Below are positions 13,147-34,090 of a DNA stretch of 64,000 nt, piece after piece (position 1 is the stretch's first letter; every line of letters starts with the position of its first letter). This DNA comes from a virus: UHGV virus genome UHGV-1455077, one strand, 5' to 3'. Made by a program: the position numbers and the translations under genes. The notes below the pieces were generated by a model that worked only from the letters and a program-made list of their open reading frames with translations, did not search any database and was not told the DNA's origin.

Positions 13147-13491
13147 ATGATAGAATTAAGAAATTGTAAAAAACACGGTTTAACAGAATTTTCATATCAT
13201 AAATCTGGTAATAGATGGAGATGTAAAAAATGTATGGTTGAAGCTGTTAAATTAAGAAGGAAAAAAATTAAAGAAAAAGCTGTCGAATATAAAGGTGGAA
13301 AATGCGAAATCTGTGGATATAATAAATGTATAGATGCATTAGAATTTCATCATTTAAATCCAAAAGAAAAAGATTTTGGAATTGGAGAAAAAGGTTATAC
13401 TCGCAGTTGGATAAAAATTCAAGAAGAACTTGATAAATGTATTATGGTGTGTGCAAATTGCCATAGAGAAATACATAATAAAGATACGTAA
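13147..13491 (+). CDS. HNH homing endonuclease with zinc-binding motifs
   Basis: CKKC...CEICGY...EFHHLNP...CANCHREIH; sits inside the tRNA cluster. Confidence 0.85.
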   Translation: MIELRNCKKHGLTEFSYHKSGNRWRCKKCMVEAVKLRRKKIKEKAVEYKGGKCEICGYNKCIDALEFHHLNPKEKDFGIGEKGYTRSWIKIQEELDKCIMVCANCHREIHNKDT

Positions 13492-13846: not shown

Positions 13847-13871
13847 TTATTGTTTTTTCAAAATTTTTAAG

Positions 13872-14010
13872 AATGGTGAGAAATTGATTTACATAGACTG
13901 GAAATCCGTGTGTAGAAAGTTCGATTCTTTCCCCATCGACCATTTAACGGTGGGTAGCTCATTGGTAGAGCAACGTAAAATGATAATCAATTGTTATGTT
14001 CCTTCTTAAT
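13872..14010 (+). ncRNA. structured tRNA-like RNA unit A (permuted)
   Basis: Order along the strand: aatggtgagaaattgatttacatag leader; T-arm GAAAG-TTCGATT-CTTTC; acceptor 3' strand CCCATCG-A-CCA; 5-nt spacer; acceptor 5' strand CGGTGGG; D-arm GCTC-ATTGGTA-GAGC. The unit is closed by AATTGATT (13882-13889) pairing with AATCAATT (13985-13992). Confidence 0.55.
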
Positions 14011-14029
14011 TTTAAAAGTTTTGGTAGTT

Positions 14030-14067
14030 GGAAGTTAAGCTTTTGGGGCAGGAGCAACTTAACTTCC
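14030..14067 (+). ncRNA. strong 10-bp hairpin of unknown role
   Basis: GGAAGTTAAG ... CTTAACTTCC with an 18-nt loop. Confidence 0.3.
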
Positions 14068-14483
14068 ATCTATTGATGCGTGTCCTGATTTAATTAATTA
14101 CCTTCTCGTGGTTCAGGATGTAAGTAAGAATTGCAGTTTTTGACATAAGACAATTCTGAAACTAAAGATTAATATTAAAATGATTTAATTGAAGTATAGT
14201 AAATTAAATAAGTTGATTAAATAAGTGAGCAAGATAGAATCAACTAAAGGTAATAATATGCAGATTATATGCCGAACTACTAACGCTTAAGGTAGATGTA
14301 GGAAATAACCTCGGTAGGGCAATTTAATTGTTAATCTCTTAGAAGTCCTAAAAAAATAAACCGTTTTAAAAAACTGCGTTAAATTAAAATTTTGAAATTG
14401 TTGTTCTCCTTTCATTGTTTTTCATACAACAAGAGTAAAAATATTCTTAGTATCGGGAGAGGTAATATCTTATCTCTCTCTTT

Positions 14484-14663
14484 TTATAAAAATGCTGGCA
14501 ATATTGGTTCGAATCCAATATGTATATCTTATCCTAAAAATTACTATTATAGTATTAGATTTAAATAGTAATGATATGTCAAATTTAATAAGAACGTGTT
14601 ATTGAATTATATACATTAGTTTAATGGTAGAACCCCAGCATTTCTATAAGAAGATTTTTATGG
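14484..14663 (+). ncRNA. permuted tRNA-like element
   Basis: The 3' half (GCTGG, variable loop, ATTGG-TTCGAAT-CCAAT, ATGTATA-T; 14494-14527) lies about 80 nt upstream of the 5' half (TATACAT-TA-GTTT-AATGGTA-GAAC-C-CCAGC; 14610-14639). Acceptor 7/7 and anticodon-stem 5/5 are complementary across the two halves. Outer closing stem ATAAAAAT/ATTTTTAT. Confidence 0.55.
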
Positions 14664-14735
14664 GTGTATAAGTCAACGGTTAGACTAACAGCCTTTTAAG
14701 CTGTAGATTCGGGTTCGATTCCTTTATAATCAATA
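14658..14735 (+). tRNA. tRNA-Lys (TTT)-like with degenerate 3' end (possible pseudogene)
   Basis: Acceptor 5' GGGTGTA; D AGTC/GACT; anticodon stem ACAGC/GCTGT; loop CTTTTAA. The T-arm is truncated (CGGG-TTCGATT-CC) and there is no matching acceptor 3' strand. Confidence 0.35.
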
Positions 14736-17199: not shown

Positions 17200-17337
17200 A
17201 TGATGAAACGGTGTGGCGGTGTACACGTCTGAAAGTAATAGACCTAGACTTTTAGTTTGAAAGTGAAAGCTAAACAAAGGTATTACCGTTAGAGGAAGTA
17301 AGAAGTCATTGGTTCAACTCCAATTTTCATCACAAAT
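17200..17337 (+). ncRNA. unusually long (~137 nt) tRNA-like element
   Basis: Perfect 7-bp acceptor pairing TGATGAA/TTCATCA flanks a T-arm (CATTGG-TTCAACT-CCAATT). No encoded CCA. The body is too long for a canonical tRNA. Confidence 0.35.
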
Positions 17338-17413
17338 GCTCGGTTAGTTCAGTTGGAAGAACACCGCTTTTACACAGCGGGGGTCGGCAGTTCGAACCTG
17401 TCACCGAGTACCA
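17338..17413 (+). tRNA. tRNA-Val (TAC)
   Basis: Acceptor GCTCGGT/ACCGAGT; D GTTC/GAAC; anticodon stem CCGCT/AGCGG; loop TTTACAC; T-arm GGCAG-TTCGAAC-CTGTC; A73 then CCA. Confidence 0.8.
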
Positions 17414-19497: not shown

Positions 19498-20163
19498 ATG
19501 TATTACCTAATTTATAAAATAACTAATAATGTAAATAATAAAATCTATATTGGAAAACATCAAACGGAAAATAAAGATGATGATTATATGGGTTCTGGAA
19601 AAATAATAAAAAGAGCTATTGAAAAATATGGTATAGATAAATTTACAAAAGAAATATTATATGAATGTAATTCATTAGAAGAAATGAATGAAAAAGAAGC
19701 AGAAATTGTTGATGAAGAATTTGTTGTTCGTTTAGATACATATAATATTAAATTAGGTGGTCAAGGTGGATGGGATTATGTCCATAAATATACTGATTGG
19801 AATGGATTTAAATATATAAATTCACAAAAGTTAAATAATAAATCGAATCAGTATAAAATATCTGCTGAAAAACTTAAAAATGATGAAAAATATGCAAAAG
19901 AATTTTCTTTAAAAATTTCTAATGGATTAAAATTATATTACCAATTACATAATAATCCATTTAAAGGGAAAAAACATACAATTGAATCAAAAATAAAAAT
20001 TGGTAAAGCAAATGCTATTAAACAAGCTGGTGAAGGAAATTCCAATTATGGAAAATGTTGGATTTATAATGAAGAATTAAAAGAAAATAAATCTATTAAA
20101 AAAGAAAATTTACAATCTTGGTTAGAGAAAGGTTGGAAAAAAGGGAGAAAAATGAAATTTTAA
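19498..20163 (+). CDS. GIY-YIG homing endonuclease
   Basis: N-terminus YYLIYKITNNVNNKIYIGKH...YMGSG matches the GIY-YIG motif. Embedded in the tRNA cluster. Confidence 0.8.
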   Translation: MYYLIYKITNNVNNKIYIGKHQTENKDDDYMGSGKIIKRAIEKYGIDKFTKEILYECNSLEEMNEKEAEIVDEEFVVRLDTYNIKLGGQGGWDYVHKYTDWNGFKYINSQKLNNKSNQYKISAEKLKNDEKYAKEFSLKISNGLKLYYQLHNNPFKGKKHTIESKIKIGKANAIKQAGEGNSNYGKCWIYNEELKENKSIKKENLQSWLEKGWKKGRKMKF

Positions 20164-20294: not shown

Positions 20295-20369
20295 GGCAAT
20301 GTAGTGAAAAGGTTATCACGACTGACTCATATTCAGTAATTTCAAGTTCGATTCTTGACATTGCTACCA
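20295..20369 (+). tRNA. tRNA with anticodon CAT (Met, or Ile2 if lysidinylated)
   Basis: Acceptor GGCAATG/CATTGCT (G1.U72); D GTGA/TCAC; anticodon stem ACTGA/TCAGT; loop CTCATAT; T-arm TCAAG-TTCGATT-CTTGA; A73 then CCA. Confidence 0.65.
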
Positions 20370-20399
20370 TTCATTATTAACTTGTGGGATATTAATTTA

Positions 20400-21563
20400 A
20401 TGACAAATTACATTATAAATAATAATATCGTCAGAATTTTTGGCGAAGATGAAATCAATATTAAACCAGAAATTCCATTAGGAACATATTTGGTTAAAGA
20501 AAATGAATTAACAGGTGAATTGTTTTTAGAAAGAACAGCAGATTTTGTAAAGCCTGAAAAAATATATGGAGAATGTGAATTCCAATCTGAACGAATTATT
20601 AAAACATTTAAAGACAGACCTAATAATACTGGAGTTCTTTTAAATGGTGCAAAAGGTTCAGGAAAAACATTTTTAACTAAGTATATTTCCTATAAGCTTT
20701 TAAAAGATAATTATCCAACAATAATTATTAATGATATATTTAGTCCAACAAAGTTATCTTTATTAATTCAAACAATTAGTGAACCTTGTGTCATTATTTT
20801 TGATGAATTTGAAAAAATTTATCAATCAAATAAAAAAGATGATTTGCAAAACCCACAGAATGGTTTACTTTCATTGCTTGATGGTTTATTTCAAACTAAA
20901 AAGCTATTCATCTTTACTTGTAATGATGATAGTAATATTTCAGATTTGATGAAGAATAGACCTGGTAGAATTTTTTATAAATTGGAATTTAAAGGAATTA
21001 CTGAAAAAACAATTGAAGAATATTGTGAAGAAAAATTAAATAATAAATCATATATTTCTCAAATTTTTAGTATTCGTAAAATGATTAAAGATTTTACCTT
21101 TGATATTTTACAAGCAATTGTTGAAGAAGTTAATCGTTATAATGAAACTCCTTTAGATGTTGTTAAAATGCTTAATGTAACTCCAGAATCTTTATATGCA
21201 AAATATACTGTATCAATTAAGCCATTAAAGAATCAACAAATTGTAAAATTTGAAAAATCTTTATGGGTAAATCCATTATCTTCAGAAGAAGAATCAGTAT
21301 GGATTTATAGAACTAAAACATCAAATGCAGATGATAATAAATATGTTGTTGAAGACGAGGATATTAAAATTTGTGAGCTTAGTTGTGAAACTGATGATGA
21401 TGAAGATAATAATGTTAAAACAGTTACTGATTATTTTCCAGTATCATTGCTTACAATGGTATCATCTAACAAAAATACTTATGTGTATCAGAATGAAGAA
21501 TATCAGGTTACTTTAACTAAAAAGATTATTGATACTGATGATATGTGGAAGTATGCATTTTAA
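20400..21563 (+). CDS. AAA+ family ATPase (start moved to MTNYIINN; the track start at 20355 overlaps the tRNA)
   Basis: Walker A GAKGSGKT and Walker B IIFDEFE. Confidence 0.7.
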   Translation: MTNYIINNNIVRIFGEDEINIKPEIPLGTYLVKENELTGELFLERTADFVKPEKIYGECEFQSERIIKTFKDRPNNTGVLLNGAKGSGKTFLTKYISYKLLKDNYPTIIINDIFSPTKLSLLIQTISEPCVIIFDEFEKIYQSNKKDDLQNPQNGLLSLLDGLFQTKKLFIFTCNDDSNISDLMKNRPGRIFYKLEFKGITEKTIEEYCEEKLNNKSYISQIFSIRKMIKDFTFDILQAIVEEVNRYNETPLDVVKMLNVTPESLYAKYTVSIKPLKNQQIVKFEKSLWVNPLSSEEESVWIYRTKTSNADDNKYVVEDEDIKICELSCETDDDEDNNVKTVTDYFPVSLLTMVSSNKNTYVYQNEEYQVTLTKKIIDTDDMWKYAF

Positions 21564-22330: not shown

Positions 22331-22353
22331 AACTCTGCCTTTTTAAACAAACA

Positions 22354-22455
22354 GATAGTGATTATTAGATTTACATAGTTCGATTCTATATTTTTTCATA
22401 TAAAAAGGAAAAATGCCAAAAGGGTGGCGTTTACAATCTAATGAATTTTCTTCTG
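22354..22455 (+). ncRNA. structured RNA unit B (ATAGTGA leader, reduced core with T-loop)
   Basis: gatagtgattattagatttacatag + TTCGATT ...; closing stem ATTAGATT/AATCTAAT. Confidence 0.45.
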
Positions 22456-22472
22456 TTTATTTAAAAATTTTC

Positions 22473-22545
22473 GATAGTGAGTATAAGATTTACATAGACC
22501 AGACTTTTAATCTGACATTTACAAAATCTTATAGATTGTTCTTCG
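22473..22545 (+). ncRNA. structured RNA unit C
   Basis: gatagtgagtataagatttacatag + hairpin CAGA-CTTTTAA-TCTG; closing stem TATAAGATT/AATCTTATA. Confidence 0.45.
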
Positions 22546-22564
22546 AATTAATACTTTTTTGTGA

Positions 22565-22662
22565 ATAGTGAGATATTAGGTTTACATAGCTAAAGTGGTT
22601 AAAGCATTTGACTTGAAATCAAAGTATTGTAGGTTCGATTCCTACTGTAATTTTAACTTAAT
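22565..22662 (+). ncRNA. structured RNA unit D, containing a complete class-I tRNA-like fold with anticodon TGA (22580-22653)
   Basis: Leader aatagtgagatattaggtttacatag. tRNA-like: acceptor GTTTACA/TGTAATT (one U-U), D GCTA/AAGC, anticodon stem TTTGA/TCAAA, loop CTTGAAA, T-arm GTAGG-TTCGATT-CCTAC. Closing stem TATTAGG/CTTAATA. Confidence 0.5.
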
Positions 22663-22727
22663 AAAATGTTCTTTCACAAATTTAATTATTTGACACTTTA
22701 TTATAAATGTTATATAAATAATAATAT

Positions 22728-22813
22728 GGAAGGTAACTGGCTGGATGAAGACACCGACTTGAAATCGGCTGGGCGTAACTGCTTTGGGGGTTCGAGTCCC
22801 TCACCTTCCGCCA
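22728..22813 (+). tRNA. tRNA-Ser (TGA), type II
   Basis: Acceptor GGAAGGT/ACCTTCC; loop CTTGAAA; long variable arm; T-arm GGGGG-TTCGAGT-CCCTC; G73 then CCA. Confidence 0.7.
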
Positions 22814-23580: not shown

Positions 23581-23711
23581 GATTTTAATAAGCTCCCCCG
23601 CTAAAGATACTTTGTGTATACAGCGAATATGGGTCAAAGTTTAAACTTTGCATTAAATTATAATAATTGTACAATAAAAAATTATGTGAGCATTTTTTAA
23701 TTTTGTATGGT

Positions 23712-23790
23712 AATAGTGACTTAAAGAATTACATAGATAACTGATTATTGTCTGCCAAAACAAGAAATTCTTTAAAATTATTCTTTACCA
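23712..23790 (+). ncRNA. structured RNA unit E
   Basis: taatagtgacttaaagaattacatag...; closing stem TTAAAGAATT/AATTCTTTAA (10 bp). Confidence 0.45.
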
Positions 23791-23805
23791 TTTAAACTAT
23801 TTTAG

Positions 23806-23945
23806 CAATAGTGAGAAAAGGATTTACATAGGTTTGTAACCCGTTGGTAATTGGTTCGAATCCAATCAAGTAATTGAAATATATTATTTGTAGCTCATTG
23901 GTAGAGCAACGATAAAAAATAATCCTTTATTATGTTCTTTGCTAA
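23806..23945 (+). ncRNA. structured tRNA-like RNA unit F (permuted, same architecture as unit A)
   Basis: Leader caatagtgagaaaaggatttacatag; T-arm ATTGG-TTCGAAT-CCAAT; acceptor 3' CAAGTAA. A few nt downstream, acceptor 5' TTATTTG (7/7 complementary) and D-arm GCTC-ATTGGTA-GAGC. Closing stem AAAGGATT/AATCCTTT. Confidence 0.55.
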
Positions 23946-23953
23946 CAAATATT

Positions 23954-24062
23954 TGGTGATAGTGATTAATTAGGTTTACATAGCTTAATGGTTAGAGCAT
24001 TGATTTAACACATCAAACGTTACAGGTTCAACTCCTGTTGTAATTAATACCTAATTTACTAT
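23954..24062 (+). ncRNA. structured RNA unit G, containing a complete class-I tRNA-like fold (23974-24046) with anticodon loop TTAACAC
   Basis: Leader tgatagtgattaattaggtttacatag; acceptor GTTTACA/TGTAATT; D GCTT/GAGC; anticodon stem TTGAT/ATCAA; T-arm ACAGG-TTCAACT-CCTGT; closing stem TAATTAGG/CCTAATT. Confidence 0.5.
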
Positions 24063-24082
24063 TCTTCACCAGTTCAATTTTG

Positions 24083-24115
24083 CACCCAAGAACATATGTT
24101 CTTGGGTATTTTTTT
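24083..24115 (+). terminator. rho-independent terminator closing the tRNA/ncRNA island
   Basis: cacccaagaacatatgttcttgggtattttttt. Confidence 0.8.
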
Positions 24116-24125
24116 ATATAAGTTA

Positions 24126-24155
24126 TTGACAAATCATCTATAAATGAAGTATATT
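24126..24155 (+). promoter_or_regulatory. sigma70-like promoter
   Basis: ttgacaaatcatctataaatgaagtatatt. Confidence 0.5.
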
Positions 24156-24760: not shown

Positions 24761-26047
24761 ATGAAAACAAATAAAGCTGAAAAGAAACCAGCAATTTACA
24801 CTAATGAAGGTGGTAAAGCATCTCATATTAGTGATTTAGAAGAATTGAAAAGAGCAACAATGTCTTGTTTGCTTTGGGAAGATAACTTCTATGAAGATGG
24901 TGTATCAATTGCTGACAGAATTACCTCTTTAGTTAAAAATTGTATTGATAAAGGTCATTATGATGATGTAATTGATATTTTGAAAACTGTAAAATTTGAT
25001 ATGAGATTACGTCATTGTCCATTGTGGATGATTGTTGCAATTTATAAAGCAGGTAAAACTATTGATAAGAATGTTATTGCATCTATTCTTACAAGACCAG
25101 ATGATATGGGAGAATTACTTTCTCTTTATCGTAAAGACCAAGCAAATGCACCTATTCCAAATGCTATGAAAAAAGCTATGGCTATTGCCATTACTAAATT
25201 TGATGAATATCAATTGGCTAAATGGAATCGTGATGCTAATTACAAATTGGTTGATATTGTAAACATTTGTCATCCACAAGTAACTGAAGCTATTGATAAG
25301 TTGGTTAAAGGAACTTTAGAAACTCCAAAAACTTGGGAAGTTCTTCTTTCTGCCGCTGGTTCTGATAAAGAAAAGAAAAAAGAAGCTTGGTTGGATTTGA
25401 TTGAAACTAATAAATTACCTGATATGGCTCTTTTGAAGAATATTCGTGGTATGTTGGATGTAGGTGTTTCTAAAAACACATTGGTTGACCGTATTAATAA
25501 TATTAAAAATGGTAGATTATTGCCAATTGATTATATTAGAGCGGCAAATACAAATCCATCATTGGAAAATGAAATTGAAAAGAAATTCTTAAATTGCTTT
25601 GAAAAACCTTCTTTGAATGGTAAGACTGCAATTTTAGTAGATGTGTCAGGTTCTATGGATGGAGAAAGATTAAATTATGCAAATGCATTAGCGATGATTG
25701 GTCGTGAAATGTGTGAAAATGTTGATATTTACTCATTCTCTAATGAAGTCAAATTCATTCCAAATCGTAGAGGATTTGCTTTAGCAGAAGCTATTGATAA
25801 ATCACAATACCATAATGGAACTTATATGTGGGATGCTATTAGTACAGTTGAAAAAGCTCATTACGATAGATTAATTGTTATTACTGATGAGCAAACAATG
25901 GGTATGCCACACAACGCAGTTATTAAAAATGCATACATTATTAATGTTGCACCATATAATAAAGGTGTTGGTTACAATAATGGTTACAAACATATTAATG
26001 GTTTTTCAGATAAAGTATTTAATTATATTACTGAAATTGAAAAATAA
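24761..26047 (+). CDS. rsr: Ro60/Rsr-like protein (TROVE-like N-terminal region plus C-terminal vWA domain with MIDAS)
   Basis: N-terminal LKRATMSCLLWEDNFYEDG resembles the Ro60 LHRFLCFGSEGGTYY region. C-terminal AILVDVSGSMDG (DxSxS MIDAS) and a vWA-like fold. Size (428 aa) is appropriate. Confidence 0.6.
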   Translation: MKTNKAEKKPAIYTNEGGKASHISDLEELKRATMSCLLWEDNFYEDGVSIADRITSLVKNCIDKGHYDDVIDILKTVKFDMRLRHCPLWMIVAIYKAGKTIDKNVIASILTRPDDMGELLSLYRKDQANAPIPNAMKKAMAIAITKFDEYQLAKWNRDANYKLVDIVNICHPQVTEAIDKLVKGTLETPKTWEVLLSAAGSDKEKKKEAWLDLIETNKLPDMALLKNIRGMLDVGVSKNTLVDRINNIKNGRLLPIDYIRAANTNPSLENEIEKKFLNCFEKPSLNGKTAILVDVSGSMDGERLNYANALAMIGREMCENVDIYSFSNEVKFIPNRRGFALAEAIDKSQYHNGTYMWDAISTVEKAHYDRLIVITDEQTMGMPHNAVIKNAYIINVAPYNKGVGYNNGYKHINGFSDKVFNYITEIEK

Positions 26048-33526: not shown

Positions 33527-34090
33527 ATGAATAATATAACATTTATTTCTAATGGTAATGTAAAAGATTACCCAAGTCAACCTGTTAGTTATACATTAAC
33601 TTGGAAAAGACAAACAATAAATTTTAATAAGGAAACAGAAATGCAAGATAAAATTTTAAACGCTTATAAGCAGGCAGTTAAAGAAAATGATTTTTGGAGA
33701 AAGAAAGTTTTAACTACTTTACGCTCTGAAATTAAAAATATGGAAATTATGCTTCGTCCAAAAAATTTAACACCAACTGATGCAGATATTCTTTGTGTTA
33801 TTCAAAAAATTATTAAACAAGATAAAGAAGCACTTGGTATGTTTATTGAAAGTGGACGACAAGATTTGATTGATGCAACTAATACTGAAATTACAATTCT
33901 TGAAGAATTTTTACCAACACAATTAACAAATGATGAAATTGATAATATCATCAAACAAGAAATTGAAAATAATAGCTATTCATCAATGAAAGATATGGGC
34001 AAATTGATGGGATATTTTAAGAATAATTATTCTGGTCAATGTGATATGGGATATGTATCTAAGAAAATTAAGGAGATGTTAAATGGATAA
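33527..34090 (+). CDS. GatB/YqeY-domain protein
   Basis: C-terminal pattern TILEEFLPTQLTNDEIDNIIKQEI...MKDMGKLMGYFKNNYSGQCDMGYVSKKIKEML matches the YqeY / GatB C-terminal domain. Confidence 0.5.
   Translation: MNNITFISNGNVKDYPSQPVSYTLTWKRQTINFNKETEMQDKILNAYKQAVKENDFWRKKVLTTLRSEIKNMEIMLRPKNLTPTDADILCVIQKIIKQDKEALGMFIESGRQDLIDATNTEITILEEFLPTQLTNDEIDNIIKQEIENNSYSSMKDMGKLMGYFKNNYSGQCDMGYVSKKIKEMLNG

What the first reader, a model, noticed from the sequence alone, without database searches (positions are those of the whole stretch)
13872..14663. Circularly permuted tRNA halves: 3' half upstream of its own 5' half (three instances)
There are three cases. Case 1: T-arm plus acceptor-3' CCCATCG-A-CCA sits 5 nt upstream of acceptor-5' CGGTGGG plus a D-arm, and all 7 acceptor positions pair. 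Case 2: a 3' half (GCTGG, variable loop, ATTGG-TTCGAAT-CCAAT, ATGTATA) lies about 80 nt upstream of a 5' half (TATACAT-TA-GTTT..GAAC-C-CCAGC). The acceptor is 7/7 and the anticodon stem 5/5 complementary. Case 3 (23838-23915): acceptor CAAGTAA/TTATTTG, 7/7 pairing. Twelve perfect base pairs between halves cannot be chance. Permuted tRNA genes are known only from some algae and archaea that have a splicing endonuclease. Here the ends instead pair in a closing stem, so the likelier reading is a tRNA-derived scaffold (Y-RNA-like) rather than a decoding tRNA. Cases 1 and 3 also share a near-identical 5'-half-plus-tail segment (GTAGCTCATTGGTAGAGCAACG.TAAAA.GATAATC..TT.TTATGTTC), so the unit has been duplicated.
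Basis: seen in the sequence. Interest (0 to 1): 0.85.

Follow-up and report, generated by a model that had tools for sequence, protein, structure and literature searches.

The report
Phage Y RNAs mimicking permuted tRNAs
The "back-to-front tRNA halves" are real: at least two of the three are the tRNA-like heads of Y RNAs, small RNAs expected to dock onto a Ro60 ring protein encoded nearby in this AT-rich phage (its closest relatives come from human-gut metagenomes); the RNA class (YrlA) is already known, but here it forms an unusually large, modular family.

Summary
Observation confirmed. An unbiased structural scan finds a T arm, then a 7/7 "acceptor" hairpin, then a D arm at exactly three places in the window.

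Cases 1 (13867-14009) and 3 (23802-23945) are YrlA-type Y RNAs:
- They give sub-threshold Rfam YrlA hits (42.5 and 35.4 bits; cut-off 69).
- Their 5' and 3' ends form a strongly covarying bulged stem. Its motif is RG-UGAG here and GGCGAA/GGCGAG in relatives, which matches the published Ro60-binding motif GNCGAAN0-1G.
- A TROVE/Ro60 (Rsr) gene lies at 24761-26047 on the same strand.

The same stem wraps five further RNAs (22349-22679, 23707-23791, 23953-24072). Two of them hold whole tRNA-like bodies that ARAGORN calls tRNA-Ser and tRNA-Val.

Case 2 (14480-14653) has the same permuted head on a 19-bp helix but no Ro motif, so its assignment is tentative.

The literature already describes YrlA RNAs as circularly permuted tRNA mimics and reports them in phages. 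These are therefore new, divergent members of a known kind. Interest is moderate. The notable points are the seven-member modular array, exact 7-bp acceptors, and an encoded A-CCA plus spacer in case 1, which looks like a relic of a tRNA dimer.

The parts
13867..14009 (+). Y RNA unit W1 (= case 1), YrlA type. Layout: outer stem UUAAGAA (13867-73) / UUCUUAA (14003-09); bulged U 13874; GG (13875-76) / CC (14001-02); internal loop with 5' UGAGA and 3' GUUAUGUU; inner stem AAUUGAUU (13882-89) / AAUCAAUU (13985-92); UACAUAG 13890-96; V or anticodon-like arm AUAGA-CUGGAAA-UCCGU (13893-909); T arm 13915-31; closed acceptor 13932-38 / 13948-54 with loop A-CCA-UUUAA; D arm 13957-71.
   Evidence: YrlA 42.5 bits, E 8e-8; R1 53.7 bits; this is a seed sequence.
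14480..14653 (+). Case 2: a permuted tRNA-like head on a long helix. Layout: helix CUUUUUAUA-A-AAAUGCUGG (14480-98) / CCAGCAUUU-C-UAUAAGAAG (14635-53); T arm 14503-19; acceptor 14520-26 / 14610-16 closed by an 83-nt insert (14527-609); D arm 14619-33. It has no Ro-type motif. It abuts tRNA-Lys(UUU) at 14661.
   Evidence: z = -3.6; same architecture at the same place in sister phages, with unalignable sequence; 28.9 bits.
14455..14480 (+). An 11-bp hairpin followed by a U-run (terminator-like) immediately 5' of case 2. Sister phages have a hairpin at the same place (GGAGAGA-UUAA-UCUCUCC).
22349..22458 (+). Y-stem unit W2: the same outer stem, loop and inner stem. Its head holds a T-arm-like hairpin AUAG-UUCGAUU-CUAU plus two small hairpins.
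22468..22549 (+). Y-stem unit W3. Its head is a small hairpin CAGA-CUUUUAA-UCUG, whose loop resembles a Lys(UUU) anticodon loop.
22559..22679 (+). Y-stem unit W4. Its head is a whole tRNA-like body in normal arm order (ARAGORN 'tRNA-Ser(UGA)', 22579-22654). It has a short variable region and no CCA, and its acceptor is stacked on the Y stem.
   Evidence: The anticodon differs in orthologues: UUU in L002, GUU in L003/L004/L134.
23707..23791 (+). Y-stem unit W5, with a small-hairpin head.
   Evidence: z = -2.7.
23802..23945 (+). Y RNA unit W6 (= case 3), YrlA type. Layout: outer stem UUAGCAA / UUGCUAA; bulged U; AG / CU; inner stem AAAGGAUU / AAUCCUUU; V arm AUAGG-UUUGUAA-CCCGU; T arm 23850-66; closed acceptor 23867-73 / 23884-90; D arm 23893-907.
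   Evidence: YrlA 35.4 bits, E 1.4e-4; R1 60.1 bits; this is a seed sequence.
23953..24072 (+). Y-stem unit W7. Its head is a whole tRNA-like body in normal order (ARAGORN 'tRNA-Val(AAC)', 23974-24046) with no CCA. The orthologues have anticodon UGA.
   Evidence: z = -3.5.
24084..24107 (+). Intrinsic-terminator-like hairpin plus U-run that closes the W5-W7 cluster. A promoter-like site follows at 24126-24155 (TTGACA-18-TATATT), ahead of the rsr operon.
   Evidence: consensus matches only.
24761..26047 (+). Ro60/Rsr orthologue, 428 aa, with a TROVE domain and a weak vWA domain. It is the presumed protein partner of the Y RNAs.
   Evidence: PF05731, E 2.5e-17, 63.6 bits against a cut-off of 23. 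(the only two PDB sequences matched are 9KOP/9L5Y, the Thermus phage phiLo Ro60; E 1.9e-13 over residues 14-427). (homologues annotated as TROVE or RNA-binding protein in many phages).

Best explanation
Cases 1 and 3 are phage-encoded Y RNAs of the YrlA type, and case 2 may be one too.

Architecture. Each RNA's 5' and 3' ends pair into a two-part stem. From the outside in, this is an outer helix of 6-7 bp, one bulged nucleotide, a 2-bp RG/CY step, a conserved asymmetric internal loop (5' YGAR, 3' ...UUCY), and an inner helix of 7-10 bp. This stem is the docking site for the ring-shaped Ro60/Rsr protein encoded at 24761-26047. The far end of the RNA is a tRNA mimic. Because the strand enters at the anticodon or variable side, the arms come in the order V arm, T arm, 'acceptor' hairpin, D arm. 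On the DNA this looks like a 3' tRNA half placed upstream of its own 5' half.

Proposed function (inferred). By analogy with characterised Ro60-Y RNA particles, the stem gates or occupies the Rsr ring, and the tRNA-like elbow recruits a tRNA-binding or RNA-decay partner. Host PNPase is the precedent. This would redirect RNA decay or tRNA quality control during infection.

Predicted processing (inferred). The acceptor hairpins are exactly 7 bp, and case 1 encodes A-CCA. RNase P probably opens them, giving a two-piece RNA with a tRNA-like CCA end, as shown for M. smegmatis YrlA.

What is shown here: the sequence architecture, the covariation of both stems and of the tRNA-like arms, the linkage to rsr in many phages, and the motif kinship with GNCGAA.

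What is inferred: Rsr binding, the identity of the partner, RNase P cleavage, and the biological role.
For: 1. Rfam. YrlA (RF02553) is the only non-tRNA family that hits cases 1 and 3 with low E-values. True neighbouring tRNA pairs in the same array (Phe-Pro, Lys-Arg, His-Leu) give no YrlA hit.
2. Partner gene. A TROVE/Ro60 gene lies on the same strand, 816 nt downstream of W6.
3. Y stem. It is shared by 19 distinct units from the window and three relatives. 94.7% of cells are paired, against 59% when shuffled and at most 52% when slid. 15 of 16 pairs show compensatory changes. The covariation score is 0.927 against 0.235. MFE folds of W1-W7 each recover both helices.
4. Motif. It reads U(A/G)G-UGAG in the window and (A/C)(G/A)G-CGA(A/G) in L005/L146, including an exact GGCGAAUG. 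That matches the published Ro-binding motif GNCGAAN0-1G (PMC4201824).
5. tRNA-like core. All 7 acceptor pairs and 4 of 5 T-stem pairs show compensatory changes. The Levitt 15-48 pair covaries (C-G 7, A-U 4, U-A 3), which is the same signature Chen et al. reported.
6. Orthologue comparison. The closed acceptor of case 3 keeps its pairing through a double change between window and L003: CAAGUAA/UUAUUUG becomes CAGAUGA/UCAUUUG.
7. Generality. A covariance model of the permuted core finds non-seed hits of 44-60 bits 60-300 nt upstream of rsr, on the same strand, in at least 10 further phage loci. Real tRNA-tRNA junctions score 34 bits or less.
8. Precedent. Phage Ro60 with upstream Y-like RNAs that bind it, and with it form ternary complexes with host PNPase in vitro (PMC12135203). 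[quoted passage not shown]
Against: - Both Rfam hits are well below the family's gathering score (42.5 and 35.4 against 69). The model's middle helix does not align.
- The window's motif is UGAG, not CGAA.
- Case 1 lies 10.8 kb from rsr. Published YrlAs lie within about 4 kb.
- Case 2 has no Ro-type motif. It scores in the range of dimeric-tRNA junctions with my model (28.9 bits), and its D stem is degenerate in sister phages.
- The 'anticodon' closing stem CGU/ACG is only 3-4 bp and competes with a V-arm pairing.
- There are no expression or binding data.
- The covariation alignments were hand-curated, and most tRNA-core rows were selected for perfect pairing. The percentage-paired figures are therefore inflated, although the variety of pair types is not.
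Confidence: 0.8

Rival explanations
1. Decaying tandem tRNA genes. Two adjacent copies of the same tRNA lost the 5' part of the first and the 3' part of the second. That leaves T arm + acceptor-3' + CCA + spacer + acceptor-5' + D arm as inert debris. This is the 'dimeric tRNA' false positive that Chen et al. warn about.
For: - Case 1 keeps a discriminator A, CCA and a 5-nt spacer, typical of the short spacers between neighbouring tRNAs in this array.
- The array contains homing-endonuclease genes (HNH, GIY-YIG) that could break genes.
- A real tRNA-tRNA junction (17303-17367) scores 33 bits with my permuted-core model.
- A dimeric-tRNA origin of YrlA is the published evolutionary model (bioRxiv 10.1101/312249).
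Against: - The flanks are not random debris. They form a stem with compensatory changes in 15 of 16 pairs across 19 units.
- Acceptor pairing between the 'halves' is maintained by double substitutions in orthologues and is exactly 7 bp in every lineage.
- The arrangement is linked to rsr in many unrelated phage loci.
- This is best seen as the origin of the elements, not their present state.
Confidence: 0.05
2. Genuine circularly permuted tRNA genes. The transcript would be cut in the closing stem and ligated into a circle, then opened at the acceptor by RNase P/Z to give a working, decoding tRNA, as in Cyanidioschyzon merolae.
For: - All four arms are present in permuted order.
- The 7-nt loop of the V arm has the anticodon-loop signature Y-U-NNN-R-A.
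- Acceptors are 7 bp, and case 1 has A-CCA.
- Wang et al. raise this possibility for YrlAs (bioRxiv 10.1101/312249).
Against: - No bulge-helix-bulge motif is visible. The ends form a long Ro-type stem with a conserved internal loop.
- No splicing endonuclease or RtcB-type ligase was found among the window ORFs scanned.
- The anticodon-like stem is poor in the window (AUAGA/UCCGU with an A.C mismatch).
- In case 2 there is no anticodon loop at all; the stem simply continues for 19 bp.
- The anticodon-like loops change freely between sister phages.
Confidence: 0.03
3. tRNA decoys or anti-defence RNAs. The heads (permuted tRNA, whole tRNA-like bodies, Lys-like anticodon hairpin) would act mainly as baits for host anticodon nucleases or other tRNA-targeting defences. 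Rsr would serve only as a stabiliser, or not be involved at all.
For: - Seven units carry different tRNA-like heads on one stem.
- The anticodon-like loops (UUU, UGA, GUU, UGU, AAC) vary quickly between sister phages while the stems are kept.
- The units sit inside a tRNA island, a region generally linked to countering tRNA-directed defence (own knowledge; PMC7824862 for RNA repair in jumbo phages).
Against: - There is no direct evidence.
- The conserved part is the Ro-type stem and the tRNA elbow, not the anticodon loops.
- The known biochemistry of Ro60/Y RNA points to exoribonuclease tethering (PMC4201824, PMC12135203).
- This reading is compatible with, rather than exclusive of, the best explanation.
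Confidence: 0.1

Closest known systems
YrlA (Y RNA-like A; Rfam RF02553), the tRNA-mimicking bacterial and phage Y RNAs bound by Rsr/Ro60 (Chen et al. 2014, PMC4201824; structure in Wang et al. 2018, bioRxiv 10.1101/312249)
   Same: - 5'/3' stem with a purine-rich motif on the 5' strand.
- Head with V, T, closed acceptor (AS) and D arms in that order.
- U8-A9 and G18-G19, a T-loop UUCGA, and a covarying Levitt pair.
- Encoded near rsr and on the same strand.
- Occurs in phages.
   Different: - Scores below Rfam's gathering cut-off.
- The motif is RG-UGAG instead of GNCGAA in this phage.
- The acceptor is always exactly 7 bp, which is rare among YrlAs (M. smegmatis is the described case).
- Case 1 encodes A-CCA plus a spacer in the loop.
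- There are seven paralogous units per genome.
- One unit lies 10.8 kb from rsr.
Thermus phage phiLo Ro60 with Yrl1/Yrl2 (PMC12135203; PDB 9KOP, 9L5Y)
   Same: - A phage-encoded Ro60. It accounts for the only two PDB sequences matched by the window protein.
- Y-like RNAs lie directly upstream.
- The RNAs have a stem, internal bulge and stem, with the motif in the bulge.
   Different: - In the passages I read, Yrl1/2 are described as stem-bulge-stem RNAs with a CGAA motif, and I saw no tRNA-like head mentioned.
- phiLo has two RNAs; here there are seven or more.
- The proteins are distant relatives by sequence (phmmer E 1.9e-13; 428 against 500 aa).
D. radiodurans Yrn1
   Same: Units W4 and W7 place a tRNA-like body in native arm order (D, anticodon, T) on the Ro-binding stem. 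This is the orientation proposed for Yrn1 (PMC4201824).
   Different: - W4 and W7 are complete cloverleaves that score 59-61 bits with the Rfam tRNA model. Yrn1 is only partly tRNA-like.
- There is no sequence relationship.
Circularly permuted tRNA genes of Cyanidioschyzon merolae and some archaea (Soma et al. 2007; cited in bioRxiv 10.1101/312249)
   Same: The 3' half lies upstream of the 5' half. The acceptor is initially a closed loop. The ends pair.
   Different: Those genes yield decoding tRNAs through BHB-directed excision and ligation by the splicing endonuclease. Here there is no BHB, no endonuclease or ligase was found among the ORFs scanned, and the ends form a protein-binding stem.

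Membership tests
YrlA / Rfam RF02553 | Reaches the family's curated gathering score (69 bits) | tested here: not met
   Case 1 scores 42.5 bits and case 3 scores 35.4 bits (E 1.3e-6 and 1.4e-4 in a 17-kb search). Case 2 gives no hit.
YrlA / Rfam RF02553 | tRNA-like module with the arm order T arm, closed 'acceptor' stem-loop, D arm, and conserved elbow nucleotides | tested here: met
   T-loop UUCGAWU, G53-C61, U8 A9, D loop A..GG.A. The 15-48 pair covaries.
YrlA / Rfam RF02553 | 5'/3' stem carrying the GNCGAAN0-1G motif on the 5' strand (the presumed Rsr site) | tested here: inconclusive
   The stem is strongly supported. The motif is U(A/G)GUGAG in the window, and GGCGAA/GGCGAG in homologous units of L005/L146. 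This is kinship, not identity. Case 2 has no such motif.
YrlA / Rfam RF02553 | Encoded near a Ro60/Rsr (TROVE) gene and on the same strand (published: within about 4 kb) | tested here: met
   Rsr is at 24761-26047. Case 3 ends 816 nt upstream of it. Units W2-W7 all lie within 2.5 kb. Cases 1 and 2 lie 10.1-10.8 kb upstream, outside the published range.
YrlA / Rfam RF02553 | Physically bound by Rsr; carries tRNA-type modifications (pseudouridine 55, dihydrouridine) | not testable with these tools
   Needs RIP or EMSA and modification mapping.
Circularly permuted tRNA genes (C. merolae type) | Bulge-helix-bulge motif at the paired termini, and a splicing endonuclease or ligase to circularise | tested here: not met
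   The termini form 6-7 bp + bulge + 2 bp + a large internal loop + 7-10 bp, or a 19-bp helix in case 2. No endonuclease or RtcB was found among the 30 window ORFs scanned against Pfam. The rest of the roughly 217-kb genome was not seen.
Circularly permuted tRNA genes (C. merolae type) | Product is a canonical decoding tRNA with an intact, conserved anticodon arm | tested here: not met
   The window's V/anticodon-like stem has an A.C mismatch. Its loop differs among orthologues and paralogues. Case 2 has no loop.
Ordinary tandem tRNA genes (dimeric-tRNA artefact) | Each T arm and each D arm belongs to a complete cloverleaf detectable as a tRNA | tested here: not met
   Neither ARAGORN nor Rfam tRNA calls a gene over 13867-14009, 14480-14653 or 23802-23945. 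Real junctions score 34 bits or less with model R1, against 54-60 for cases 1 and 3, although those two are seed sequences of the model.

The most novel reading that the evidence does not exclude
The locus may capture Y-RNA evolution and diversification in the act. One Ro60-binding stem has been copied at least 7 times and wrapped around interchangeable tRNA-derived heads. These are a whole tRNA, a tRNA dimer junction still carrying discriminator, CCA and spacer, and bare T-like or anticodon-like hairpins. Together they would form a phage 'toolkit' of adaptor RNAs that steer one Rsr ring to different partners, or bait different tRNA-targeting defences. The 7-bp/CCA heads would be opened by RNase P into two-piece RNAs with a chargeable tRNA-like end.
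Probability: 0.2. Interest if true: 0.7.

Novelty: new member of a known kind. Interest (0 to 1): 0.4.

Why it matters
- It explains an odd-looking sequence pattern with a known RNP system. It also shows that Rfam's YrlA threshold misses a whole clade of phage Y RNAs, found here in human-gut and other environmental metagenomes.
- It flags a practical annotation trap. Two 'tRNA genes' called by ARAGORN and Rfam (22579-22654 and 23974-24046) are probably heads of Y RNAs, not decoders.
- For Ro60/Y-RNA specialists the locus is a compact natural experiment. It has seven paralogues with one protein-binding stem and swapped effector heads, strict 7-bp acceptors, and a head that still looks like a tRNA-tRNA junction. 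That head directly supports the proposed dimeric-tRNA origin of YrlA.
- It offers testable substrates for the open question of what the tRNA-like module recruits.

Tried and rejected
- Searching phage GenBank records with the region and with 20 kb of the window gave only generic tRNA matches or nothing. The phage has no close sequenced relative in that collection.
- A short degenerate pattern (TAGTGA-N6-10-TTTACATAG) against IMG/VR returned only single matches per contig, as expected by chance for 15 fixed bases, and was useless.
- Rfam at gathering threshold finds no YrlA in the window or in 8 related Rsr loci. Only E-value mode shows them.
- The outer pairing ACAUAG/UUAUGU suggested by the Rfam alignment was rejected. 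It is not conserved in L005, and it conflicts with the inner stem, which covaries.
- I considered that the ATAGTGA...TTTACATAG repeat might be a promoter. I rejected this because its parts are in the wrong order and spacing, and because the flanks covary as RNA helices.
- I looked for a Ro-type motif or outer stem around case 2 in the window and in L002. None was found.
- I looked for RtcB, RNA ligase or a CCA-adding enzyme in 30 window ORFs. None was found.
- An exact 27-mer from the adjacent tRNA-Lys found only the four known sister contigs, so case 2 has only two sequence variants available.
Full report
**Setting**

The window is very AT-rich (about 26% GC) and phage-like. It carries a large tRNA island on the + strand, from 12.4 to 28.3 kb. 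ARAGORN tRNAs there and Rfam. It matches IMG/VR contig IMGVR_UViG_3300045988_152892 (216.8 kb) and several human-gut metagenome contigs. No close relative exists among deposited phage genomes.

**Observation**

All three cases are present as described.

To test them without bias I scanned the window and about 50 related loci, on both strands, for the following pattern:
- a 5/5 T stem with G53-C61 and a U[UG]C[GA]A T-loop;
- directly followed by a 7-nt strand, a loop of 3-100 nt, and a fully complementary 7-nt strand;
- then U8 and a D arm with GG.

The window gives exactly three hits: 13915-13971, 14503-14632 and 23850-23907. Five shuffles of all the sources give none. The same units recur in independent assemblies, so they are not chimeric joins.

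**What cases 1 and 3 are**

- An E-value Rfam scan of the island hits one non-tRNA family at these two sites only. YrlA ('Y RNA-like') scores 42.5 bits at 13890-14003 and 35.4 bits at 23817-23931.
- Both scores are below the gathering score of 69. However, genuine neighbouring tRNA pairs in the same island give no YrlA hit, which serves as a built-in control.
- The ORF at 24761-26047 has a TROVE domain (E 2.5e-17) and a weak vWA domain.
- The only two PDB sequences it matches belong to the Ro60 of Thermus phage phiLo (9KOP/9L5Y, E 1.9e-13 over nearly its full length).
- Homologues are annotated as TROVE or RNA-binding proteins in many phages.

**The stem**

Looking upstream of the tRNA-like parts, I found the repeat U(A/G)GUGA-N8-11-UACAUAG seven times. 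All copies are on the + strand and all lie inside the island. Each copy has a 3' partner (...UUCU or UUCC). The flanks pair as follows:
- an outer helix of 6-7 bp;
- one bulged nucleotide;
- a 2-bp step, which is GG/CC in case 1 and AG/CU elsewhere, so it is compensatory;
- an internal loop;
- an inner helix of 7-10 bp;
- the conserved UACAUAG;
- a variable head.

I checked the unit coordinates by regular expression. They are W1 13867-14009 (case 1), W2 22349-22458, W3 22468-22549, W4 22559-22679, W5 23707-23791, W6 23802-23945 (case 3) and W7 23953-24072.

I then tested the stem on 19 distinct units from the window, L002, L003 and L005, with the heads replaced by GAAA:
- 94.7% of cells pair, against 59.4% in shuffles and at most 51.6% when partners are slid.
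- 15 of 16 pairs have changes on both sides.
- The covariation score is 0.927 against 0.235.

Unconstrained MFE folds of all seven window units recover both helices.

In the relative L005/L146 (Rsr 59-60% identical) the 5' loop reads AGGCGAA, AGGCGAG or CGGCGAG, including an exact GGCGAAUG. That is the GNCGAAN0-1G motif Chen et al. proposed as the Rsr-binding site (PMC4201824). More distant Rsr loci show GG(U/C)GAAG. The window's UGAG is therefore a C-to-U, A-to-G variant of the published motif.

**The head**

In W1, W6 and their homologues the order of elements is:
- UUAC;
- a 5-nt, 7-nt, 5-nt hairpin, which corresponds to Chen's 'V' arm;
- a 4-5 nt variable stretch;
- the T arm;
- a 7-bp hairpin;
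- UA;
- the D arm.

The V-arm loops have the anticodon-loop signature Y-U-NNN-R-A. The V stem is a perfect 5 bp in L171, L165 and L161, but is weak in the window.

I tested the core on 15 distinct domains:
- All 7 acceptor pairs and 4 of 5 T-stem pairs show compensatory changes.
- The covariation score is 0.945 against 0.237.
- The Levitt 15-48 position covaries (C-G 7, A-U 4, U-A 3). This is the signature that first identified YrlA as a tRNA mimic.
- Caveat: most rows had been selected for perfect pairing, so only the diversity of pair types is informative, not the percentage paired.

Between orthologues, the closed acceptor of case 3 keeps its pairing through a double substitution: CAAGUAA/UUAUUUG in the window becomes CAGAUGA/UCAUUUG in L003.

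I built a covariance model (R1) of the permuted core and ran it over 37 sources:
- Non-seed matches of 44-60 bits lie 60-300 nt upstream of rsr, on the same strand, in L155, L158, L010, L163, L011, L164, L006, L153, L169 and L170.
- Real tRNA-tRNA junctions score 34 bits or less. One example is 17303-17367 in the window.

L010 also gives a sub-threshold Rfam YrlA hit of 49.7 bits.

**Comparison with the literature**

[quoted passage not shown] They have D, T, V and AS arms (PMC4201824).
[quoted passage not shown] It also discusses an origin from dimeric tRNA transcripts (bioRxiv 10.1101/312249).
- A 3D-alignment study lists Y RNA and tRNA as the main natural example of circular permutation (PMC11472068).
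- Phage Ro60 with upstream Y-like RNAs has been shown to bind those RNAs. Together they form ternary, RYPER-like complexes with host PNPase in gel-shift assays (PMC12135203).
- TROVE proteins occur in a subset of jumbo phages (PMC7824862).

**What is unusual here**

1. There are seven units per genome on one stem design, with swapped heads.
   - W1 and W6 have permuted tRNA heads.
   - W4 and W7 have whole cloverleaves in native order. ARAGORN calls these tRNA-Ser(UGA) and tRNA-Val(AAC). They lack CCA, although nearly all other tRNAs in the island encode it. W4 has a short variable region, unlike a genuine tRNA-Ser. The anticodons differ between sister phages: UGA, UUU and GUU for W4, and AAC and UGA for W7.
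   - W2, W3 and W5 have small hairpins.
2. Acceptors are exactly 7 bp in every lineage. This is the feature that made M. smegmatis YrlA an RNase P substrate that then receives CCA (PMC4201824).
3. Case 1's acceptor loop is A-CCA-UUUAA, that is, a discriminator, CCA and an inter-tRNA spacer. Loops starting with NCCA also occur in L008 and L165. My rough estimate is about 0.2 such loops expected by chance, against the 3 observed. This looks like a little-eroded tRNA dimer junction and fits the dimeric-tRNA origin model.

**Case 2**

- It has the permuted head and a 7/7 acceptor closed by an 83-nt structured insert.
- Its 5-bp 'anticodon' stem runs on into a 19-bp helix with one A.C mismatch (z = -3.6).
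- It has no Ro-type motif.
- Sister phages keep the same architecture at the same place, directly 5' of tRNA-Lys(UUU) and 3' of a hairpin. Their sequence, however, cannot be aligned, the insert is 35 nt, and the D stem is degenerate.
- It is a real, maintained tRNA-like element. Whether it is an Rsr ligand is open.

**Mechanism**

Shown here: the architecture, the covariation and the genomic linkage.

Inferred from characterised systems:
- Rsr binds the bulged stem.
- The tRNA-like elbow recruits a tRNA-binding or decay factor, with PNPase as the precedent.
- RNase P opens the 7-bp acceptors.

Consensus scans suggest that W5-W7 form their own unit. It would run from a weak promoter-like site at 23647-23675 to a strong terminator-like hairpin at 24084-24107. 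The rsr operon would start from TTGACA-18-TATATT at 24126-24155.

**Verdict**

These are new, divergent members of the YrlA/Y RNA class, with some variant features. Interest is moderate.

Noticed in passing
window 22349-22679, 23707-23791, 23953-24072: Five further RNAs (W2-W5, W7) share the same Ro-type stem as cases 1 and 3 but carry different heads.
   Followed up: yes
window 22579-22654 and 23974-24046: The ARAGORN/Rfam 'tRNA-Ser(UGA)' and 'tRNA-Val(AAC)' calls sit inside Y stems and lack CCA. The Ser call has a short variable region. Their orthologues have different anticodons. They are probably not decoding tRNAs, which makes them an annotation trap.
   Followed up: partly
window 22728-22812: A probable genuine class-II tRNA-Ser(UGA) with a long variable arm, ending GCCA, preceded by TTGACA-N17-TATAAA. 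ARAGORN missed it, and Rfam shows it only as a weak tRNA-Sec hit (30.7 bits).
   Followed up: no
window 14661-14733, compared with L002 2336-2497: The 3' part of tRNA-Lys(UUU) differs from the sister phages. It has poor acceptor pairing and no CCA, and about 90 nt are missing relative to L002. This looks like a recombinant or decayed gene.
   Followed up: partly
window 14008-14397: A 390-nt stretch with no convincing ORF (the largest is 42 aa) is 86% conserved with sister phages and has strong hairpins (GGAAGUUAAG.../...CUUAACUUCC and UCCUGA.../...UCAGGA). It has no Rfam match and may be another structured RNA. In L002 a promoter-like site and a 77-aa ORF are inserted just before it.
   Followed up: no
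window 17200-17335: A tRNA-like sequence with acceptor GAUGAAA/UUUCAUC and T arm AUUGG-UUCAACU-CCAAU lies just before tRNA-Val(UAC). ARAGORN does not call it, and Rfam tRNA gives 21.7 bits. Its junction with tRNA-Val is the 33-bit 'dimeric tRNA' hit of model R1.
   Followed up: no
window 13147-13491 and 19498-20163: An HNH ORF and a GIY-YIG/NUMOD3 (SegE-like) homing-endonuclease ORF are embedded in the tRNA island. An AAA/STAND-like ATPase is at 20355-21563.
   Followed up: no
window 33527-34090: A YqeY-like protein (PF09424, E 4.5e-38), a GatB-related family, lies about 7.5 kb downstream of rsr.
   Followed up: no
L005 9289-9960 and L146 2465-2981: In a relative with 59-60% identical Rsr, a sigma-70-like promoter drives five Y-stem units plus one ordinary tRNA-Lys in a row, directly upstream of rsr. 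Their motif is the canonical GGCGAA/GGCGAG.
   Followed up: partly
L177 compared with window 14455-14653: The IMG/VR copy of what appears to be the same contig differs from the window at a few bases in case 2. One change (U to C) adds a mismatch in the long helix. The window therefore comes from a slightly different strain or assembly.
   Followed up: no
L007 9576-9734: A weak tmRNA-model hit (26.2 bits) and an R1 hit (35.4 bits) lie just upstream of another phage rsr. This is probably a divergent tRNA-like Y RNA.
   Followed up: no
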